From Octopus sinensis (Eukaryota): a stretch of 64,000 nt of DNA. The position numbers and the translations under genes were made by a program. Under the pieces are notes generated by a model. It saw nothing but the letters and a program-made list of their open reading frames with translations, was not told where the DNA came from and did no database searches. Location: contig NC_043000.1 of assembly GCF_006345805.1 (NCBI RefSeq), forward strand, positions 149,420,001 through 149,484,000, written 5' to 3'. How positions within the stretch are numbered: the stretch's first letter is position 1; each line of letters begins with the position of its first letter. Below are positions 1 to 46,200 of this stretch, in pieces.

Positions 1-2081
1 AAGGGGCTGAGGACTGAACCTTGGTGGACCCCAACCTCTACCCGGAATTCTTCACTGTACTCGTTGCCAACCCTCACCTTACTGATGGCATCCTTGTACA
101 TGGCTCGCACAGCTCTCACTAACCATTCATCTATCCCTAGTTTCCTCATTGACCACCAGATGAGGGATTGTGGGACCCTGTCAAAGGCTTTCTCCATGTC
201 AACGAAAGCCATGTACAGAGGTTTATCTTTGGCTAGGTATTTCTCCTGCAGCTGTCTTAGTAGAAATATAGCATCAGTGGTGCACTTCCCTGGCACGAAC
301 CCAAACTGCATCTCATCTAAACTGACTCTCTCCCTAATTAGTTGGGCTATGAACCTCTCTGTAACCTTCATTACCTGATCCAACAACTTGATACCTCTGT
401 AATTATTTGTATCTAAATCTTCACCTTTACCTTTGTAGCAGTTGACTACGGTGCTCCTACACCAGTCATTGGGTATGGCTCCTTCGTGTATTACCTGGTT
501 AACTATACGAATGACTAGGCTATATCCGACACTGACTGATATTTTGAGCATCTCTGCAGTGATTCCTGGTGAGCCGGGGGCTTTCCCTGCCTTCATACTC
601 TTGATTGCTTTATCTACCAAGGTATTGTCATTTCGGATAGCTAGTGCCTCTGTTGGGTCAACATTCAGCAGACTCTCTTTATTGAGCAACCTTTCATAGT
701 GGCGTCTCCAAACCTCTCTCTTTGCAGCCTCGTTTAGTGCAAGTGAACCATCACCCATACAGACACATTTCTCTCCTATGACATCACGATTCTCTCTCAC
801 ACCCTGTCTTGCAACACGAAATACCTCAAGTCTTTGGTCCGCACGGCGCAGAACATTGGCAAATTTTTTCTTATCTGCTTCCCCACTGGCTGAATAAACC
901 TGTCTCCTAGCTTCCCTTCTGGCAGTCTGATACAATTCCCTGCTACCTCCGTTCTTCCATTCCTTCCAAGCCTGTTTCTTTTGTCTAATAGCCCTGTCAG
1001 CCACATTGTTCCACCACCACGTTACCTTGGGTTGAGAGGGGACTTTGCATCATCCACAGATCTGGTCAGTGGCTCTCAGCTGGTTGTCCTGTAGAAACCT
1101 CCAGTTGTCTTCCACATTATGTGATGCTATATCCCCTTCTATTTCATCAAAGGCTTTGATTAATACGTCTCTAAATCATTGTCCATTTGCATGATCTTTA
1201 AGCTTCCAGACCCTTCTCCTCCAAGCTGGTCATCTTCAGAGCATCCACTTAGCCCTGATCCTGAAGTTGCTAACTACTAATCTATGTTGAGGGATACATT
1301 CTTCGCCTGGGAAGGTTTTGGCATTTATAAGCAGCCCTCTTTCCCTTTTTCTGGCGAGGATGTAGTCAATTTGGCTAGTGTGTCTGCCAGAACGATAGGT
1401 GACTAGGTGACAGGCGGGTTTCCTGAAGTTGGTATTGCAAACCATAAGATCATTTACATTTCAGAACTCCAGCAGTCTGGTTCCCTCCTCATTGCGGGAA
1501 CCTAAACTATAGCTTCCGTGTATGCTATGGAAGCCCCCTGCATGTTGTATGCCACATCCATTGAAATCACCAGCCACAAAGAGAAAGTCCCTGTCATATA
1601 TCAACGAGGTAGTCTGCAATAGGGTGTCATAAAATCGGTCTTTCTGCCCATCCGGTAGCCCCGGTTGAGGGGCATAGGCCGAGATAATGGTAGCTAACCT
1701 ATGGTGAAGCACTAATATAATCTTAAGTACTCTGTCACATACTCTGACTACCTCGATTACCTTATCAACCCATTTCTCCACAAGAAGTATACCCACGCCC
1801 CCGACCCCGTCAATGTTCCCTGCCCAGAAAATCATGTACCTGTGTTTCTTGCCTGTGAGGAACCTAACAGAACCTCCTCTCCACCTTACTTCTTGGAAGC
1901 AGCACAAATCTGCACATTTCCGTTCAAGCATCTCAACAATCTCACCAGACCTACCTTTCAGTGTGCCAACGTTGAGTGTGCCAACTCTGAGGGCGTGGGA
2001 GATGTGGGCCTGTGAGACCCTGGGATGAGGGACAGCAATGTCATGTACCTGAAAAGGAAGTTGGCATTTGGCAGAATTCAT
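1..2081 (-). mobile_element. Decayed RTE-clade LINE (APE endonuclease plus start of RT); runs off the window edge
   Basis: ORF 1461-2081 has APE motifs (VGTLNVGTL, QEVRW, SAYAPQ, GDFN). ORF 1236-1445 has SQIDYIL and QHRLVV. Further frameshifted pre-RT/RT fragments continue towards base 1. Confidence 0.9.
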
Positions 2082-2286
2082 AAAGAAACACTAGACTACA
2101 ACCTAGATACACTACGCCATTTTTATGCGCTATGTGATCAATAAACCCTACGTAGGGGTGGCAGTGGCATTAGGCCCTTAGAAACAAGGAAGACAGAGGA
2201 TAAGATCTTACGGTAAAGGTGGAGGGGTGGGAGGGTGGGTGTACCGTGAACCAACAAGTTTAGACGAGAGCATCGTCTTCTGCACT

Positions 2287-8729: not shown

Positions 8730-10443
8730 GTGAGAGCTGTACAAGCCATTTTCAAGGATGCTGTCAGTAAGGTGAAGGTTGGCAATGAGTTTAGTGAAGA
8801 ATTCCAGGTAGAGGTAGGGATCCACTAAGGTTCAGTCCTCCGTCCCCTCTTATTCATCATAGTCCTCCAGGCAATAACAGAGGAATTCTAGACAGGATGC
8901 CCCTGGGAGCTCCTCTATGCTGATGACCTTGCTCTCATAGCTGAAGCACTACCAGAACTAGAGAAGAAGTTTCAGGTGTGGAAGCAAGATCTAGAATCAA
9001 TCTAGCAGAAATCAAAGTCAATATATGTTGGAAGGCAGACAAATCACAAATCCCTTCAGGTAGATGACCCTGCTTGATCTGTAGAAAAGGCATAGGTAGA
9101 AACTCCATAAGATGTACCCAGTGTAATCTATGGACACATAAGAAGTGCAGCAATATGAAAGAAAGGCTTGCTGGGAAGATAATTTTTGTATGTGGCAAAT
9201 GTACAGGGGCAATAAACACTGAAAATGGGCAGAAAACATCTGTCATATGCCAGGGGAAAAGACTAGAAGTAGTCGATAGCTTCTGTTACCTAGGTGACCA
9301 AGTTAGTTGCGTGGGTGGATGCTCTGAGGGCATAGCTGCTAGAATAAGAATAGCCTGGGCAAAGTTCAGACAGCTCCTACATCTGCTGGTAACAAAGGGC
9401 CTCTCACTCAGAATGAAAGATGGACTGTATGACGCATGTGTGCAAACAACCATACTACACAGCAGTGAAACATGGGCTGTGACTGCTGAGGATATGTGTA
9501 AACTTGCAAGAAATGAGGCAAGTATGCTCTGCTGGATGTGTAATGTCAGTGTACCTACACAACAGAGTGTAAGCACCCTGAGAAAAAAGTTGGACATAAG
9601 AAGCATCAGATTTGGTGTACAAGAGAGACGACTGTGCAAGTATGGTCATGTGTTGCGTATGGTTGAGGACAGCTGTGTGAAAAAGTGTCACACCGGAAAA
9701 GTGGAGCGAACCTGTAGAAGAGGTAGATTCAGGAAGACCTGGGATGAGGTGGTGAAGTATGATCTTCAGATATTGGACCTCATGGAGGCAATGACAAGTG
9801 ACCGAGACCTTTGGAGACATGCTGTGCTTGAGAAGACCCAGCAAGCCAAGTGAGATCGTAACTGTGGCCTATGCCAGTGCAGCATAACTGGCCCATTTAA
9901 GAGTACCCTTCAATCATTGGGCAATAAACTATGCTTGAGAAGAACTGTTGAGTCAAGTAAAATCACTGTCTTGGTTGATACCAGTACCACCTGATTGGCA
10001 CCCATACCAGTGACACGTAAGATGCACCATTTGTGTGTGGTTGATGCCAAACCCACTGGACTGGCTCCTGTGCCGGTGGCACGTAAAATCCACCATATTA
10101 TGCCGGTGCCACCTGACTGGTCCCAAGCCAGTAGCACACAAAACGCACCATTTGACTGTGGTCATATCCAGTGCTACCCGACTGGCTCCTGTGCTAGTGG
10201 CACATAAAAAGCACCATTTGAGCATGGTTGATGCCAATACCATATAAATGGCCCTTGTGCTAGTGGCACGTAAAAGGCACCCACTACACTCTCGGAGTGG
10301 TTGGTATTAGAAAGGACATCTAGCCGTAGAAATCTTGCCAGATCAGATTGGAGCCTTGTGCAGTCTTCTGGCTTGCCAGACCTCAGCCAAACCATCCAAC
10401 CCATGCCAGCATGGAAAGTGGACATTAAATGATGATGATGATG
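8730..10443 (+). mobile_element. 5'-truncated RTE LINE (RT C-terminal half, 3' UTR, (GAT)n tail)
   Basis: PWELLYADDL RT motif near 8900-8930. ORF 9074-9853 (259 aa) has a Cys-rich insert and VDSFCYLG, SETW, RGRFRKTW. Confidence 0.9.
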
Positions 10444-18483: not shown

Positions 18484-18525
18484 TTTAAATGTAAATGATA
18501 CTCAAATAATAATATAATTTTAAAC

Positions 18526-18878
18526 AATTGCAGTGGGGAAGGTGTTTGTAAGCCATTTAAGATACACGCAAAAGCTGTTCGATCACTTCAACATTTAAGT
18601 TTAATTTGTCAAAATATTTTCGTCGCTATAAGACCGCGACCTCTTCACTGACAAAAATCTGTGCTGCATCTCGTGCTGCATCACAGATTTTTGTCAGTGA
18701 ACAGGTCGCGGGTTTTAGCAACAAAAATACTTTGACAAATTAAACTTAAATGTTGAAGTGAATTGAACAGCTTTTGCATGTTTCTTAAATGGCTTACAAA
18801 CACCTTCCACATTGCAATTATTTTCGTTTCAGCACACGATCTCAGATCAAATCACTTGCTATGCAAGTACATCTCCGA
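18526..18878. mobile_element. 353-bp fold-back element (inverted arms 18526-18819) with a 15-bp TSD; each arm carries a hammerhead-like motif
   Basis: AATATAATTTTAAAC at 18511-18525 and 18879-18893; ~140-bp inverted arms; HHR-like motifs at 18605-18655(-) and 18690-18739(+). Confidence 0.8.
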
Positions 18879-19565
18879 AATATAATTTTAAACGAAGAAA
18901 AAAACCCCAACACAATCACAAAAGCTTGTAATTTATTTCAACATAATATTTATGGGCACCGGAGGATCTCTGTTTGTGACTAATACAGATGACACCAAAA
19001 CTAACAGCATAATCCATAAATGCCTTTGAAGTAATAATAAAAGTGGTATGAAAGATAAAAGATGGCATTGAAAAAGTGGATGATTAGAAAAACAATACAG
19101 TGCATAATTAGTCAGGTACTAATATATTGAAAGCCTTCTTGCTGTACATGCAGGAACGTATTTTGAAATGATGGGCAATTAATAATTAGCCTTATGAGTA
19201 ATCATTGCAAAGTTAAGTTATATTATTTGTGATGAAAGCAGCAGATATTTTCAGAATTATGTGAACTTTGATTCAATCGTAGTAACTGTATTTTAGAAGA
19301 ACTGTGTTTAATTATATAATTGCAGCTAAAAGCATTTTTGCTGGATGAACATGGAATAAAACTAGATGAAAAAATACAAGAGGAAACAAGAATAATTTGT
19401 AAAATGGCATAAATAAAGAAATGTTGACAGTCAATCCCAGAAAACTAAAATATAAAGTTCCATGGTGGATATAAACTTAGAGCATAAATGGCATGGTATT
19501 TTCTTGTCCTATCAACAACAAAAGCAGCAACAACACTAATACCCACAAAAAAAAAAAAAGAATAT

Positions 19566-21957: not shown

Positions 21958-22851
21958 TCAGTTCTTTCCAGCTGCATAACATACATAACCCAATTTAAAC
22001 CAACCTGATTTATAAAGTTGAAGCTTTGTTTCTGGTTTATGTTTGTCCACATACATTCCATATATGATCTGTTGATCTGTACTTATTAGTTTTATGGACA
22101 AAGACTTGTTAACGAAGTTCAAATACTCTTGAGTAAATTTGTACAAAACATCATATTTACCAAGATTGCTAGCACCTCCTATCCACACCATATTGTCATA
22201 AATAATGTCTTTATACGTTATATCCTCCTGAAAATATTCTACCTGGGAATAGGCAACCTTTGTATCATCAAAATCTGTAGGTTTTGCTAATTTAAATTTA
22301 GGGTCATCATGGAGATATCGAAAAAGTCCAATATCTAACCACATAAAGTATTTAGTATGAAAATAGTTCTTTCTTATAACCCGATTAAGAAGTTCAAATT
22401 TTGCATGCATGGCACAAGAATATCCAGGTACAACAGTGTTGGGAAGATGTTTTGGGTAATCAGGCTGTGTATATATTTGAGAAATAATATCGTGTATCTT
22501 AAATGACCACAATTCCTTCTTGTTTATCAGAAATATTTTGGTTCGTACTTTAGGAAGATTTTCCCTTAACTTTTGAAAATATTTGTATGCAATCATATCA
22601 TTTGTATAAAAAATTACATTATTGGTCATGTTGCGAAATACAGACATCCATTTGTAATAGATATTTGGGGTATACTGACGTCTAAAAACTCCTTTTGCAA
22701 AGGATCCTATATTGAAATAAGCGGTCAAGACTGTGATTTCATTCGAAAGATTCATATTCATCTTTGGAAGGTCACTTTTAAAAGCGTGAATGTTTTCCTC
22801 AATTGATGATATTTTTGTAGAGTTTTCAATAAGATATTCAATTTTAAGATC
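21958..22851 (-). CDS. HtrL/YibB-like family protein (putative glycosyltransferase-like), last and largest coding exon
   Basis: Acceptor ttatttatttaacag|GAT, phase 0, then 297 open codons. Motifs TVLTAYFNIG, YSCAMHAKFELL..NYFHTKYFMWLDIG, WIGGA, STDQQI resemble HtrL_YibB proteins. AATAAA lies ~30 nt after the stop. Confidence 0.85.
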   Translation of the reverse strand, partial: DLKIEYLIENSTKISSIEENIHAFKSDLPKMNMNLSNEITVLTAYFNIGSFAKGVFRRQYTPNIYYKWMSVFRNMTNNVIFYTNDMIAYKYFQKLRENLPKVRTKIFLINKKELWSFKIHDIISQIYTQPDYPKHLPNTVVPGYSCAMHAKFELLNRVIRKNYFHTKYFMWLDIGLFRYLHDDPKFKLAKPTDFDDTKVAYSQVEYFQEDITYKDIIYDNMVWIGGASNLGKYDVLYKFTQEYLNFVNKSLSIKLISTDQQIIYGMYVDKHKPETKLQLYKSGWFKLGYVCYAAGKN

Positions 22852-24055
22852 CTGTTAAATAAATAATAATATATAAAATTAGGAAGGATCAAAATAATGC
22901 AAAATAAACAAATAAATAAATATATAAAATAAAGTTTATATTTTACTGGGGCATATTCATTGTGATACAAATCTTAAATCTGCACATTCCTTCAAAATTT
23001 GTTTGTTGTTAGTGCTCTGGTACACATTGAAGCAGTAGATTTATTGGTTTTGCTGTACTGGAACTTCAGACTATTTCATATAAATTAATGGTCTTAACAA
23101 TGACTTAACAATTGAGTAAACGAGTTTAGGACATTTACTCATGGACAATAACCTACTGAGGACAACAGATGATGATTTAAAGCTTCTTAATATATTGGAG
23201 AGGGGGTAATTAACCAAGTGGGGTAATTGTCCTGGGGGGTAATTTTCCTAGGGGATAATTGTCCTGATATGGACTAAATTATTATCCTGTACCTAAGCTA
23301 TTTATGATAGTAAAATAGAAGGAAAGAGTAGATTGACCTTTCTCTTTTCTTCTAATTTCTTGTCACAGTTGACAATTTCAGGAGTATGTGATGTATCTTT
23401 GAGTGCATCCTTAATTGCTGCCTAGCTTTGCCATGACCACTGACATTTATTAGGCACACATAAATGACACAAAACCCCTGAAGGATGTAACCCACTGTAC
23501 AGCTATAAACACAGCAGCATCAACAAGTTACACCTCTTTCAACCGGTTGCATGCACAATGGCTCATTGGATGATAGGATGTACGGACACAACAACAGCTA
23601 TAACAAATTACACCGTCTTTAAACTGGTTGCATGCACAAACCTTTTCTATAGACAAACTTTGCAGTCAGTCACATGTCAATAGCAATAACACATTACTTT
23701 CTACATCTTACACATATTTTGGTACAAGGAACTGACAATGTGAATGTATGTTAGTTAGTTAGTTAATTTTTGGCTCAAACAGCAAAAGGCAAGGCCATGT
23801 AGGAGGACATGGAGTTATGTACAGGGTGGTGTTCATGTAAAGAGTTCAGGCCACTTGAGGTCAAGGGAGACTTTGAGACTATAGTACAAGACACTTGCTC
23901 AAGGTGTTGTACAGTGGGACTGAACCCAAAACATGTGGTTACAAAGCAAGCTTCTCCCCACACACAGCTATTCCTGCACCTATTTAAATCCATAAAAATG
24001 TATAATAATAATAATAATAATGTATAATAAAATATTAAGTATATTATCACTTGTA

Positions 24056-35275: not shown

Positions 35276-36564
35276 CTCTGTATATATGTGTGTGTGCGTG
35301 TGTTAAGTATATATGTGTTTGGAGGCAAGGCAAGGCTGGCAACGGCCACGATCGGATGGTGTTTGTAACGTGCCACCAGCACGGAGGCCAGTTGATGTGG
35401 TGCTGGCTACGGCCACATTCGGATGGTGGCACATAAGAGAACCATCTGAACGTGGCCGTAGCCAGCACCACATTGACTGGCCTCCGTGCCGGTGGCACAT
35501 AAAAAGCACCATCCGAGTGTGGCCGTTAACCAGCCTCGTCTGGCACCTGTGTCGGTGGCACATAAAAAGCACCCACTACACTCACGGAGTGGTTGGTGTT
35601 AGGAAGGGCATCCAGCTGTAGAAACACTGCCAGATCTGACTGGCCTGGTGCAGCCTTCGGGCTTCCCAGACCCCAGTTGAACCATCCAACCCATGCTAGC
35701 ATGGAAAGCGAACGTTAAACGATGATGATGATGATGATGATGATGATATATATATTTAAAGCTGGCTCATCAGAGTATGTTCTTTAAATTGCCCTTATAT
35801 GGGCATTCAAGTGGCAAATGTTCATCCTAATCTTTTTTGTAAATTGTATGTAATTATGGAATGCAGAGGGGGGTAAGGGTGAGATGGAAAGGGTAGGGGA
35901 GAAATTGAAAAAGAGCGACAGAGCTTGGAAGAAAGGAAGGGCAGAGGATTTTTGAAAGATATGTGTGAAAGATTCTTCAACAGGAAACCATTTGGTAACA
36001 TGAATTGGCTGTTATGAGACTAAGTTGTATACATATACAAGTTTGCTTTGTTTTATTGCTAGCATCACTTGAAACTTCAAATTCTTTTGTATTTCCATCA
36101 TAAAGATACAAGAGGAGCAAGTGAATTCAGATACTCTGTTATTGTCTTGTTCCCGGAAGTGTTGAGAGTAATTACAACATCAGCCTCATTCAGCTTCAGA
36201 CACCAGTTCACCAGTTTTCATTGGATTTGGATTCTAGTCCTTATTATATGCAAGCCTGCATTAGCCTATTCTACATATAGCTCATCATAGAAAGGATATC
36301 CGTCACTAAGTGGATATCTTCATCACCACAAGAGATTCCAGCCATATTAATCATTAAAATATTGATGTAATCTTTTATCCTTTTATTCTTTTACTTGTTT
36401 CAGCCATTTAACACCGGCCATGCTGGAGCACTGCCATAGAAGGTGTTAGTCAAAGAAATCAACCTCAGCACTTATTCCTTGCAAGTCTACCAAATAGATG
36501 AAAGAGCATTGTACAAAATGGAGGAGAATATATTTTAGATTAAAAAAGAACACCTTGACTCAGT

Positions 36565-37274
36565 CTGTCTTACTGCAAGAAAGTACAGCGGGTGGATCTT
36601 GCGCACCTTCAAATCAAGAGATACCTCAACAATGAAAACCCTCTGGAACAGTATGATACTTCCGAGGATTGACTACTGTTCTCAGTTGTGGTCACCAACA
36701 ACAAAGGGCCAACTATCTAAGATAGAATCGCTCCAAAGAAATTTTACCTCATACTTCTCAGAAACGAGGGACCTGGACTATTGGCAAAGACTCAAAACCT
36801 TGAGGATGTACTCAATAGAAAGAAGATTTGAGCGATACCGAATTATATACATTTGGAAAATGATAGAGCAGAAGGTGCCAAACTTTGGTATCAAAACCTA
36901 CCACTCACTGTGCCACGGAAGACGCTGCCAGCTGCCACCAATCAACAAAAAGGCTGGCCAGGCAGCAAAAACCCTGCGAGAATCAAGTCTGTTGGTTCGA
37001 GGAGCACAACTGTTCAACTCCATTCCGGTACATGTCAGAAATCTATCAGGATGCAGTGTGGAATCATTCAAATTGCAACTGGATAGATACTTAAGCACCA
37101 TTAGAGATGAACCCCATCTCCCAGGATATACACAACGAGCACAAACTGACTCAAACTCGCTCCTACACATGTCAAATTTAAGCAGAGAATACAACCTGGC
37201 AACCACACCAGACTCTGAGGGTGGAGTCTTCGACTTGGCCTGAGCATGGACTCAAACCCAAATGAAATGAAATG
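36565..37274 (+). mobile_element. 5'-truncated CR1-group LINE with an open ORF2 C-terminus and (AAATG)n tail
   Basis: ORF 36599-37243: PRIDYCSQLWSP..IESLQRNFT..DYWQRLKTLRMYSIERR..FNSIP..FKLQLDRYL. Confidence 0.85.
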
Positions 37275-44889: not shown

Positions 44890-46200
44890 CATCGTTTAAC
44901 GTCCGCTTTCCATGCTAGCATGGGTTGGACGATTTTGTCTGAGGGCTGGCGAACCAGATGGCTGCACCACACTCCAATCTTGATCTGGCAGAGTTTCTAT
45001 AGCTGGATGCCCTTCCTAACACCAACCACTCCGAGAGTGTAGTGGGTGCTTTTTACGTGCCACCGGCACGGATGCCAGTCAGGCGGTACTGGCAATGACC
45101 TCGGTCGAATCTTTTTATGCATGCCACCGGCACAAGTGCCAGTAAGGCGACGCTGGTAACGATCAAACACGAACGGTGCCCTCTGGCAACGATCACGCTT
45201 GGTTGGTGCTCTTGGCACCCTACGAGCACGGGCACAAGTGTCAGTAAGGCGCCGTTGGTAACGATCACACTCGAATGGTGCCTTTTATGTGCCACTGGCA
45301 CGGAAGCCGGTTAGCCGCTCTGTCAACGATCACACTCATATGGTGCTCTTTGCACCTCGCTAGCACGGATGCCAGTCATCGAATTTGATTTTGATTTCAC
45401 TTGCCTTAACAGGTCTTCGCAAGCAGAGTTTAGTATCCAAAGAAGGAAAAGGTACGCATAAGCGGGCTGGTTACGCTCCTGGCAAAGACCACGCGTTATG
45501 GTCTCATTTGGCTTCCGGGTCTTCTCGAGCACAGCATATTTCCAAAAGCCTCGGTCACTGGTCATTTCCTTGGTGAGGCCTAAAGTTCGAAGGTCGTGCT
45601 TCACCACTTCATCCCAGGTCTTCCTGGGTCCACTTCTTCCACAGGTTCCCTCAACCGCTAGGGTGTGGCACTTTTTCACACAACTATCTTCATCCATTCT
45701 CGCCACATGACCATACCAGCGCAAGCGTCTCTCTTGCACACCACATCTGATGCTTCTTCGGTCCAACTTTTCTCTCAAGGTACTAACACTCTGTCGAGTA
45801 TGCACACTGACATTACACATCCATCGGATCATACTGGCTTCATGCCTTGCGAGCTTACGCATGTCCTCAGCAGTCACAGTCCATGTTTCACTGCCATGTA
45901 GCATGGCTGTTCGTACACAAGCATCATACAGTCTACCTTTTACTCTGAGCGAGAGGCTCTTTGTCACCAGCAGAAGTAAAAGCTCTCTGAACTTTGCCCA
46001 GGCTATTCTTACTCTAGCAGTTACACTTTCAGCGCACCCTCCTCCGCTACTGACTTGGTCACCTAGGTAACAGAAGCTATCTACTACTTCTAGTTTTTTC
46101 TCCCTGGAATGTGGCGGGAGTTGTTCGCTGCGCATTTTCAGTGTTTATTGCTCCCGAGCATCTGCCACATATAAAAACTATCTCCCCAGTTAGCGTTCCT
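44888..46200 (-). mobile_element. 5'-truncated RTE LINE with 3' UTR
   Basis: ORF 45323-46135: VDSFCYLG..HGSETW..RRLRWYGHV..PRKTW; same tail as the other RTE copies. Confidence 0.9.

What the first reader, a model, noticed from the sequence alone, without database searches (positions are those of the whole stretch)
18511..18893. Fold-back retro-element carrying two opposed hammerheads with an inferred G3-C8 swapped catalytic core
Seen: a 353-bp insertion with a perfect 15-bp TSD and ~140-bp inverted arms. The left arm (minus) reads tttgtca-GTGAAGA-g-GTCGC-loop-GCGAC-GAAA-ATAT-TT-tgacaaa. The right arm (plus) reads tttgtca-GTGAACA-g-GTCGC-loop-GCAAC-AAAA-ATAC-TT-tgacaaa. Established: type I HHRs use a CUGANGA/GAAA core in which C3 pairs with G8, and the compensatory G3-C8 swap retains activity; PLEs carry palindromic-stem-III HHRs and often leave inverted pLTR copies. 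Inference: combining the arms gives an ancestral GUGAACA..GAAA ribozyme, with each arm since damaged at different positions. Standard CUGANGA searches would miss it, and it would be mis-annotated as a MITE. It may be an undescribed non-autonomous PLE-mobilised family with a non-canonical ribozyme on both strands.
Basis: partly seen in the sequence, partly recalled or inferred. Interest (0 to 1): 0.8.

Follow-up and report, generated by a model that had tools for sequence, protein, structure and literature searches.

The report
Penelope leader fold-back with swapped hammerhead
This 353-base insertion is two head-to-head copies of the front end of a Penelope-type jumping gene found in the same genome; that front end carries a predicted self-cutting RNA fold with two paired core letters swapped, and an extra G on many copies suggests they were likely copied from the element's capped message.

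Summary
In detail: a 353-bp insertion, 15-bp duplication, about 150-bp inverted arms and a one-sided 55-bp tail. It is not a MITE and not a separate non-autonomous family. The right arm is 90% identical to the leader and first 30 codons of a 4.4-kb Penelope-like element (telomerase-like RT, Zn linker, GIY-YIG) in the same genome, which holds at least 9,906 such arms. G3-C8 with intact GAAA is the family's majority state. Two sister families carry the same fold at the same place with C3-G8 and U3-A8; 80 of 80 cells pair and 5 of 10 pairs change on both sides. So a hammerhead fold kept by selection is well supported; cleavage is untested, and no pile-up of arms starts at the cut site. In the fold-back, the arms are predicted to sequester both ribozymes. 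New lead: arms stopping at one start base carry an untemplated G in 39 of 43, as expected from capped sense mRNA templates. I found no natural G3-C8 in nine literature searches; two key papers were unavailable. The scan noted a G3-C8 candidate in another genome (e1-7369241).

The parts
18511..18525 (+). Left target-site duplication (15 bp, AT-rich)
   Evidence: 100% identical to 18879-18893
18526..18671 (-). Left arm: copy of the PLE leader from the inferred start base (+1, at 18671) to the inner 3' end (about +146); no tail
   Evidence: L166 leader aligns to 18671-18522 at 89%; 59 of 135 arms end at +139..+154
18605..18655 (-). Left hammerhead motif, G3 with position 8 decayed to G; loop II allele differs from that of the right arm
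18672..18676 (.). Head-to-head junction: untemplated G next to +1 of the left arm (C at 18672 on plus), then 4 filler bases
   Evidence: family pattern
18677..18878 (+). Right arm: copy of the PLE leader from +4 to the outer 3' end (about +206), tail included
   Evidence: L166 leader aligns to 18677-18881 at 90%; 68 of 135 arms end at +200..+209
18690..18739 (+). Right hammerhead motif: G3 18697, C8 18702, extra G after A9, G12 decayed to A, palindromic helix III damaged, predicted cut after U17 at 18732
18789..18878 (+). First 30 codons of the PLE ORF (MAYKHL...VHLR)
   Evidence: translation; same N-terminus opens the ORF in L166 and L170
18824..18878 (+). One-sided 55-bp tail, the stretch between the two 3' end sites
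   Evidence: homologous tails in sister families
18879..18893 (+). Right target-site duplication

Best explanation
The insertion is two head-to-head copies of the leader of a Penelope-like retroelement present in this genome, likely made in one insertion event by two reverse transcriptions of capped sense RNA, and the leader carries a type I minimal hammerhead fold with a natural G3-C8 core that is predicted, not shown, to cleave. Shown: the arms match the pLTR/ORF start of a 4.4-kb RT+GIY-YIG element; 3' ends fall at two fixed sites 60 nt apart; 5' ends cluster just upstream of the hammerhead; junctions differ from copy to copy; the 3-8 pair and stems I and II covary across three sister families. 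Inferred: the endonuclease nicks both strands of an AT-rich target about 13 bp apart; each nick primes cDNA at one of the two internal start sites in the ORF; on an mRNA that starts in the pLTR each cDNA runs only 150-205 nt to the cap, which adds one base; the two cDNA ends join, giving inverted arms, one tail and a variable duplication. The ribozyme would act, if at all, on the parent's RNA as a dimer or with protein help; the copies that integrate come from uncut RNA, and in the fold-back product both motifs are predicted to be sequestered.
For: Parent: L166 has the motif at 1565 and 5926 around an ORF that starts with the window's 30 codons; L123 has a 793-aa open frame with RT motifs, C-x3-C-x2-C linker and GIY-YIG-like C-terminus, whose model (pLDDT 90) matches telomerase RT in its top five PDB hits; homologs hit RVT_1 or GIY-YIG in 7 of 10 scanned, one over the cut-off. 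Core state: 5,567 exact G3/C8 hits against 465 non-C8 and 286 non-G3. Covariation: sister families at 54-55% amino-acid identity, one clade with support 100 (quick tree), have C3-G8 (3,146 hits) and U3-A8 (2,397 hits, 93 of the first 100); 80 of 80 cells pair, 5 of 10 pairs change on both sides, slid controls 22-53%. Ends. Extra G: 39 of 43 arms stopping at +1, 10 of 11 in non-inverted copies, 7 of 7 at a second stop at -3. De novo junctions: 49 of 50 distinct. Literature: two internal RT starts define the tail, both strands are nicked and extended, C3G/G8C partly rescues cleavage (PMC11167929).
Against: No cleavage data. 0 of 86 arms and 1 of 135 start at the predicted cut site. The dimeric hammerhead fold (-28.8 kcal/mol) is not the minimum-energy dimer (-32.7). 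The extra base after A9 is G, whereas the published PLE consensus has H. Most listed copies of sister family B have C at position 9, so core drift is tolerated in this clade. The covariation rests on three lineages, not eight independent rows. The start site is inferred from DNA only; no raw RNA reads were available. The +1 site also looks like a 3' splice site. The G counts pool several searches and a junction base can be counted from both arms. No copy with a wholly intact ORF was among those fetched (L166 has one frameshift), so present activity is not shown.
Confidence: 0.72

Rival explanations
1. Same origin, but the G3-C8 motif no longer cleaves; the fold is kept as a structural or protein-binding element of the leader.
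For: No pile-up of 5' ends at the cut site; position 9 has drifted to C in most listed family B copies; in Poseidon the ribozyme is dispensable for insertion in vitro and no RNA-seq ends map to it (PMC11167929).
Against: U4, G5, A6, G12, A13, A14, A15.1 and U16.1 are invariant and the 3-8 pair stays Watson-Crick in all three families, which is the tertiary pair of the active core; engineered swaps keep partial activity.
Confidence: 0.3
2. The extra G and the 5' cluster come from splicing or trans-splicing at the branch-point/polypyrimidine/AG-like sequence just upstream of ATGCAGCA, not from a cap at a start site.
For: The upstream 20 bases resemble a 3' splice site; in Drosophila Penelope an intron ends at helix I of the hammerhead.
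Against: No shared sequence upstream of the G (T15, C12, A10, G2) and no consistent match of upstream bases to a candidate exon in five long copies; a second stop at -3 also takes G, 7 of 7.
Confidence: 0.12
3. The inversion forms by self-priming on an antisense template or by later fold-back of one cDNA, as proposed for rotifer PLEs.
For: Arms of one copy usually share alleles (39 of 46) and rare variants (43 shared against 4.9 in shuffles); PMC3846280 proposes this route.
Against: Each arm ends at its own fixed 3' site; 7 of 46 copies carry different multi-base loop alleles in the two arms, which points to two templates (6 of the 7 come from the set picked for likeness to the window copy; 1 of 19 in the position-picked set); the extra G sits at the sense 5' end.
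Confidence: 0.12
4. A non-autonomous palindromic family that moves as a 353-bp unit.
For: At least 30 near-full-length look-alikes at 87-91%.
Against: 49 of 50 centres distinct; single arms, either tail state and truncated inversions are common in position-picked samples; the arm is the parent's own leader.
Confidence: 0.05
5. A MITE or other DNA transposon with a chance hammerhead-like motif.
For: Long inverted repeats; no coding capacity in the short copy.
Against: The right end is not an inverted copy of the left end; duplications are 6-16 bp and variable; RT-encoding parent; covariation.
Confidence: 0.01

Closest known systems
Minimal type I hammerheads of metazoan Penelope-like elements (Cervera and de la Pena 2014, PMC4209133; read parts 1-2 of 4, one of two supplement files searched)
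   Same: In the pLTR; extra base between 9 and 10.1; G10.1-C11.1; short palindromic helix III; U17; mostly in truncated copies; opposed pairs 100-700 bp apart; U3-A8 variant known.
   Different: G3-C8 core; extra base is G; three Watson-Crick states of the 3-8 pair in three sister families of one genome.
Poseidon element of Anolis (Frangieh et al. 2024, PMC11167929; read parts 1-2 of 4)
   Same: Hammerhead near the ORF start; two internal 3' end sites bounding the tail; AT-rich targets; uncut RNA is the insertion substrate.
   Different: There C3G/G8C is an engineered partial rescue, here it is the natural majority state; Zn linker present; tail about 55-60 nt; leader-only copies dominate.
Neptune/Nematis EN+ PLE clades (Craig et al. 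2021, PMC8557442; passages, introduction and supplement passages read)
   Same: RT, CX2-5CxxC linker, C-terminal GIY-YIG; partial tandem and inverted structures; one-sided tail; (TA)n bias, which the paper links to Neptune.
   Different: Neptune versus Nematis not resolved: no named reference sequences were on hand.
Non-LTR retrozymes (bioRxiv 10.64898/2026.07.22.740005; read part 1 of 5)
   Same: Short non-coding repeats with type I hammerheads, derived from pLTRs.
   Different: Retrozymes are head-to-tail tandem units; these copies are single or head-to-head and appear remade from the parent's leader.
Natural hammerhead core variants (Perreault et al. 2011, PMC3088659; passages read)
   Same: 3-8 covariation seen in nature as U3-A8.
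   Different: G3-C8 is not named in the passages I saw; figures not seen.

Membership tests
EN+ Penelope-like element (truncated insertion of) | Parent ORF with telomerase-related RT | tested here: met
   Pfam did not detect RT in the parent itself
EN+ Penelope-like element (truncated insertion of) | C-terminal GIY-YIG endonuclease with CCHH | tested here: met
   motif read; GIY-YIG Pfam hits in 4 of 10 homologs, one over cut-off; no Pfam hit in the parent itself
EN+ Penelope-like element (truncated insertion of) | pLTR in partial tandem that includes the ORF start | tested here: met
   L166, L170
EN+ Penelope-like element (truncated insertion of) | Inverted truncated copy, one-sided tail, variable duplication | tested here: met
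Neptune clade | CX2-5CxxC linker between RT and EN | tested here: met
   shared with Nematis and Naiad
Neptune clade | RT phylogeny with named Neptune members | not tested
   tree held no named clade references
Type I hammerhead ribozyme | Core U4 G5 A6 A9, G12 A13 A14, A15.1-U16.1, H17 | tested here: met
   60-65 of 65 arms at each position (arms found with up to 3 mismatches per half); window arms are each damaged
Type I hammerhead ribozyme | Canonical C3 and G8 letters | tested here: not met
   G3 and C8 instead
Type I hammerhead ribozyme | Watson-Crick 3-8 pair and covarying stems I, II | tested here: met
Type I hammerhead ribozyme | Stable helix III or dimer through a palindrome | tested here: inconclusive
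   6-nt palindrome present; dimer fold 3.9 kcal/mol above the minimum
Type I hammerhead ribozyme | Self-cleavage after position 17 | not testable with these tools
   no raw RNA reads; no genomic pile-up at the site
MITE / DNA transposon | Inverted repeats at both termini and fixed-length duplication | tested here: not met
Non-autonomous retroelement moving as a unit | Shared internal junction among dispersed copies | tested here: not met
   49 of 50 centres distinct
Non-LTR retrozyme | Head-to-tail tandem units each with a hammerhead | tested here: not met
   position-picked copies are single or head-to-head

The most novel reading that the evidence does not exclude
A high-copy animal retroelement uses an active natural G3-C8 hammerhead, with all three of C-G, U-A and G-C sampled by sister families in one genome, so CUGANGA-based surveys undercount ribozymes; and the thousands of leader-only copies record that Penelope-like elements prime twice on capped, uncut, sense mRNA (sometimes two different molecules), settling the sense-versus-antisense template question from genomic fossils.
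Probability: 0.4. Interest if true: 0.75.

Novelty: new variant of a known kind. Interest (0 to 1): 0.58.

Why it matters
It gives natural, phylogenetic support for the swapped 3-8 pair that had been an engineered control, and shows that a family with thousands of copies escapes Rfam and the usual core pattern. The untemplated G bears on a question left open in print (PMC3846280): whether head-to-head Penelope insertions come from sense or antisense RNA. The same data offer a simple account of MITE-like solo and inverted pLTR copies as leader-only cDNAs, and three matched natural ribozymes for direct assay.

Tried and rejected
Rfam scan: no hammerhead model matched. First search for a parent through GIY-YIG loci: none of 30 loci matched the arm; the parent was found through the upstream extension instead. 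Pfam on the parent ORF found neither RT nor GIY-YIG; single-sequence PDB search found nothing. Exon-1 or leader sequence upstream of the G: none found. C3-G8 subfamily within the family: only 2 in each first-100 list. A candidate C3-G8 motif in L180 at 7570 was dropped: the family's own motif lies at about 6100. RNA: no RNA holder listed on record; all 24 runs are contigs; laying four of them listed no common change at positions 3 or 8 among the 40 rows shown (47 not shown) and cannot show starts, ends or strand. One family C pattern had an extra letter and gave 5 hits; corrected. BLAST-based 5' ends piled up falsely at +16 and +43 through subfamily differences; redone with five references. 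Careful tree did not finish; the quick tree is cited. Lunse et al. 2017 and Hammann et al. 2012 could not be read; either may list a natural G3-C8.

Full report
Observation. The window holds a perfect 15-bp direct repeat at 18511-18525 and 18879-18893 around a 353-bp insert with inverted arms of about 150 bp and a 55-bp tail on the right only. Rfam gave no hammerhead match.

Family. The 2.7-Gb genome gave 3,043 first-look candidates, 40 scored. A 20-mer over the core has 5,567 exact hits and a 23-mer at the ORF start 9,906, controls 0. The 30 best copies share both ends, differ at the centre and have G3 and C8 in 28 of 30 right arms. In the same context 465 hits have a non-C at 8 and 286 a non-G at 3, the level expected from decay; C3-G8 was 2 of the first 100 in each list. 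Duplications are 6-16 bp, mode 13, in 32 of 73 copies; 35 lie in (TA)n and 6 gave none; the control gave 0 of 42. This excludes a MITE.

Parent. Position-picked copies include single arms, arms with and without tail, and truncated inversions. A few extend upstream; that 29-mer has 556 hits and led to long copies. L166 carries the motif at 1565 and 5926 around an ORF with one frameshift that begins with the 30 codons of the window's right arm. L123 has a 793-aa open frame with RT motifs, a C-x3-C-x2-C linker and a GIY-YIG-like end. Pfam and single-sequence PDB searches were blank for it, but a 63-sequence profile hits RTs, 7 of 10 homologs hit RVT_1 or GIY-YIG, and the model's top five structural matches are telomerase RTs. 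The best named homolog is an Octopus vulgaris protein at 55% that groups with sister family B. The linker fits Neptune or Nematis; I did not resolve which.

Is the motif a hammerhead? Two sister families at 54-55% amino-acid identity, one clade with the parent (quick tree, support 100), have the motif at the same place, 92-135 bases before homologous ORF starts and tails. Family B has C3-G8 (3,146 hits of a pattern that fixes those letters); family C has U3-A8 (2,397 hits with both positions free, 93 of the first 100). An unguided alignment of eight natural copies gives 80 of 80 cells paired and 5 of 10 pairs changed on both sides, the 3-8 pair among them; slid controls pair 22-53%. These are three lineages, so the shuffles overstate significance, but three different Watson-Crick pairs at a position with no secondary-structure role is what the tertiary pair predicts. 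The architecture matches the PLE minimal hammerhead: extra base after 9, G10.1-C11.1, palindromic helix III (PMC4209133). Against activity: no assay; the dimer fold is 3.9 kcal/mol above the minimum; family B mostly has C9. Engineered G3-C8 is partly active (PMC11167929; PMC3884650, data not shown there).

How the fold-back forms. Relative to the A of AGATGCAGCA (+1), 59 of 135 arm hits end at +139..+154 and 68 at +200..+209, matching the two internal RT starts that define the tail in Poseidon. Of 86 arms picked on the ORF start, 46 begin at -9..+8, 2 extend further upstream and none begins at the predicted cut site (1 of 135). Of 100 distinct arms that reach +1, 40 extend upstream; 43 stop there with a non-template base, G in 39; 6 more have one C or T; 7 stop at -3, all followed by G; non-inverted copies show G in 10 of 11. 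The first 100 genome hits of a pattern open at -1 gave C 51 (template), G 37, A 12 (counted by hand; T excluded). No shared sequence lies upstream of the G. That reverse transcriptases copy a cap as an extra G is recalled knowledge, not from a call. The samples are pooled and a junction base can count for both arms. Centres are distinct in 49 of 50 inverted copies. Arms usually share alleles (39 of 46; 43 rare variants shared against 4.9 in shuffles), but 7 of 46, the window copy included, carry different loop alleles; six of those come from a biased set, 1 of 19 from the position-picked set. I infer twin priming on capped, uncut sense RNA, mostly one template or one source locus, sometimes two; gene conversion between arms is not excluded. 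PMC3846280 left sense versus antisense open.

The two opposed motifs are a by-product. The parent's leader alone folds stems I and II (pair probabilities 0.7-1.0), while the whole insert folds into one long hairpin on either strand with probability 0 for those stems. Each window arm is also damaged.

Prior art. Opposed PLE hammerheads and U3-A8 are in print. Nine literature searches and two supplement searches showed no natural G3-C8 and no cap-G report for PLEs; the library lacks most subscription papers, figures are not held, one supplement file of PMC4209133 was not searched, and Lunse 2017 and Hammann 2012 were unavailable. The scan earlier noted a G3-C8 candidate in a protist PLE, unchecked here. 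No usable RNA data were found.

Verdict. A real feature: a truncated, inverted insertion of a known class of element, carrying a natural hammerhead core variant with good comparative support and untested activity, plus a testable clue to the insertion template. New variant of a known kind; interest 0.58.

Noticed in passing
L174, L176, L177, L181, L183, L287; loci L294-L323: Sister PLE family B (3,146 motif hits) has a C3-G8 hammerhead whose position 9 is C in most listed copies and A in older ones; its ORF has a long Asn-rich insert. Short copies seem to start about 55-70 bases before the motif near an AAAATGGC motif.
   Followed up: partly
L182:5779-5830, L275, L289, L180: Sister PLE family C with a U3-A8 hammerhead and a 4-base palindromic helix III (2,397 hits); some head-to-head pairs only 30-65 bases apart suggest the same leader-only products.
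   Followed up: partly
L038, L047, L051-L053, L291, L292: A distant, abundant 781-aa PLE family also shows a U3-A8 hammerhead-like motif with a 6-base palindrome downstream of its endonuclease.
   Followed up: no
L014 left flank; L289 after 1843; L274 near 5000: Family A copies sit directly at the (TA)n ends of family B and C copies, so these families nest in one another's targets.
   Followed up: no
L196, L209, L230, L257, L262 (also L067, L074, L078): One inverted copy recurs with the same junction and hundreds of bases of shared flank, likely carried inside a larger repeat or duplication.
   Followed up: no
window 21961-22854, minus strand: 298-codon open frame matching Pfam HtrL_YibB (E 7e-13), about 3 kb from the element.
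   Followed up: partly
window 1-2090, 9068-9850, 36539-37240, 45326-46144: Open frames resembling LINE endonuclease and RT fragments (judged by eye, no family scan).
   Followed up: no
L166:4870-5900: The parent's 1-kb 3' region is built largely of (TACA)n and (CA)n microsatellites, so it may seed such repeats across the genome.
   Followed up: no
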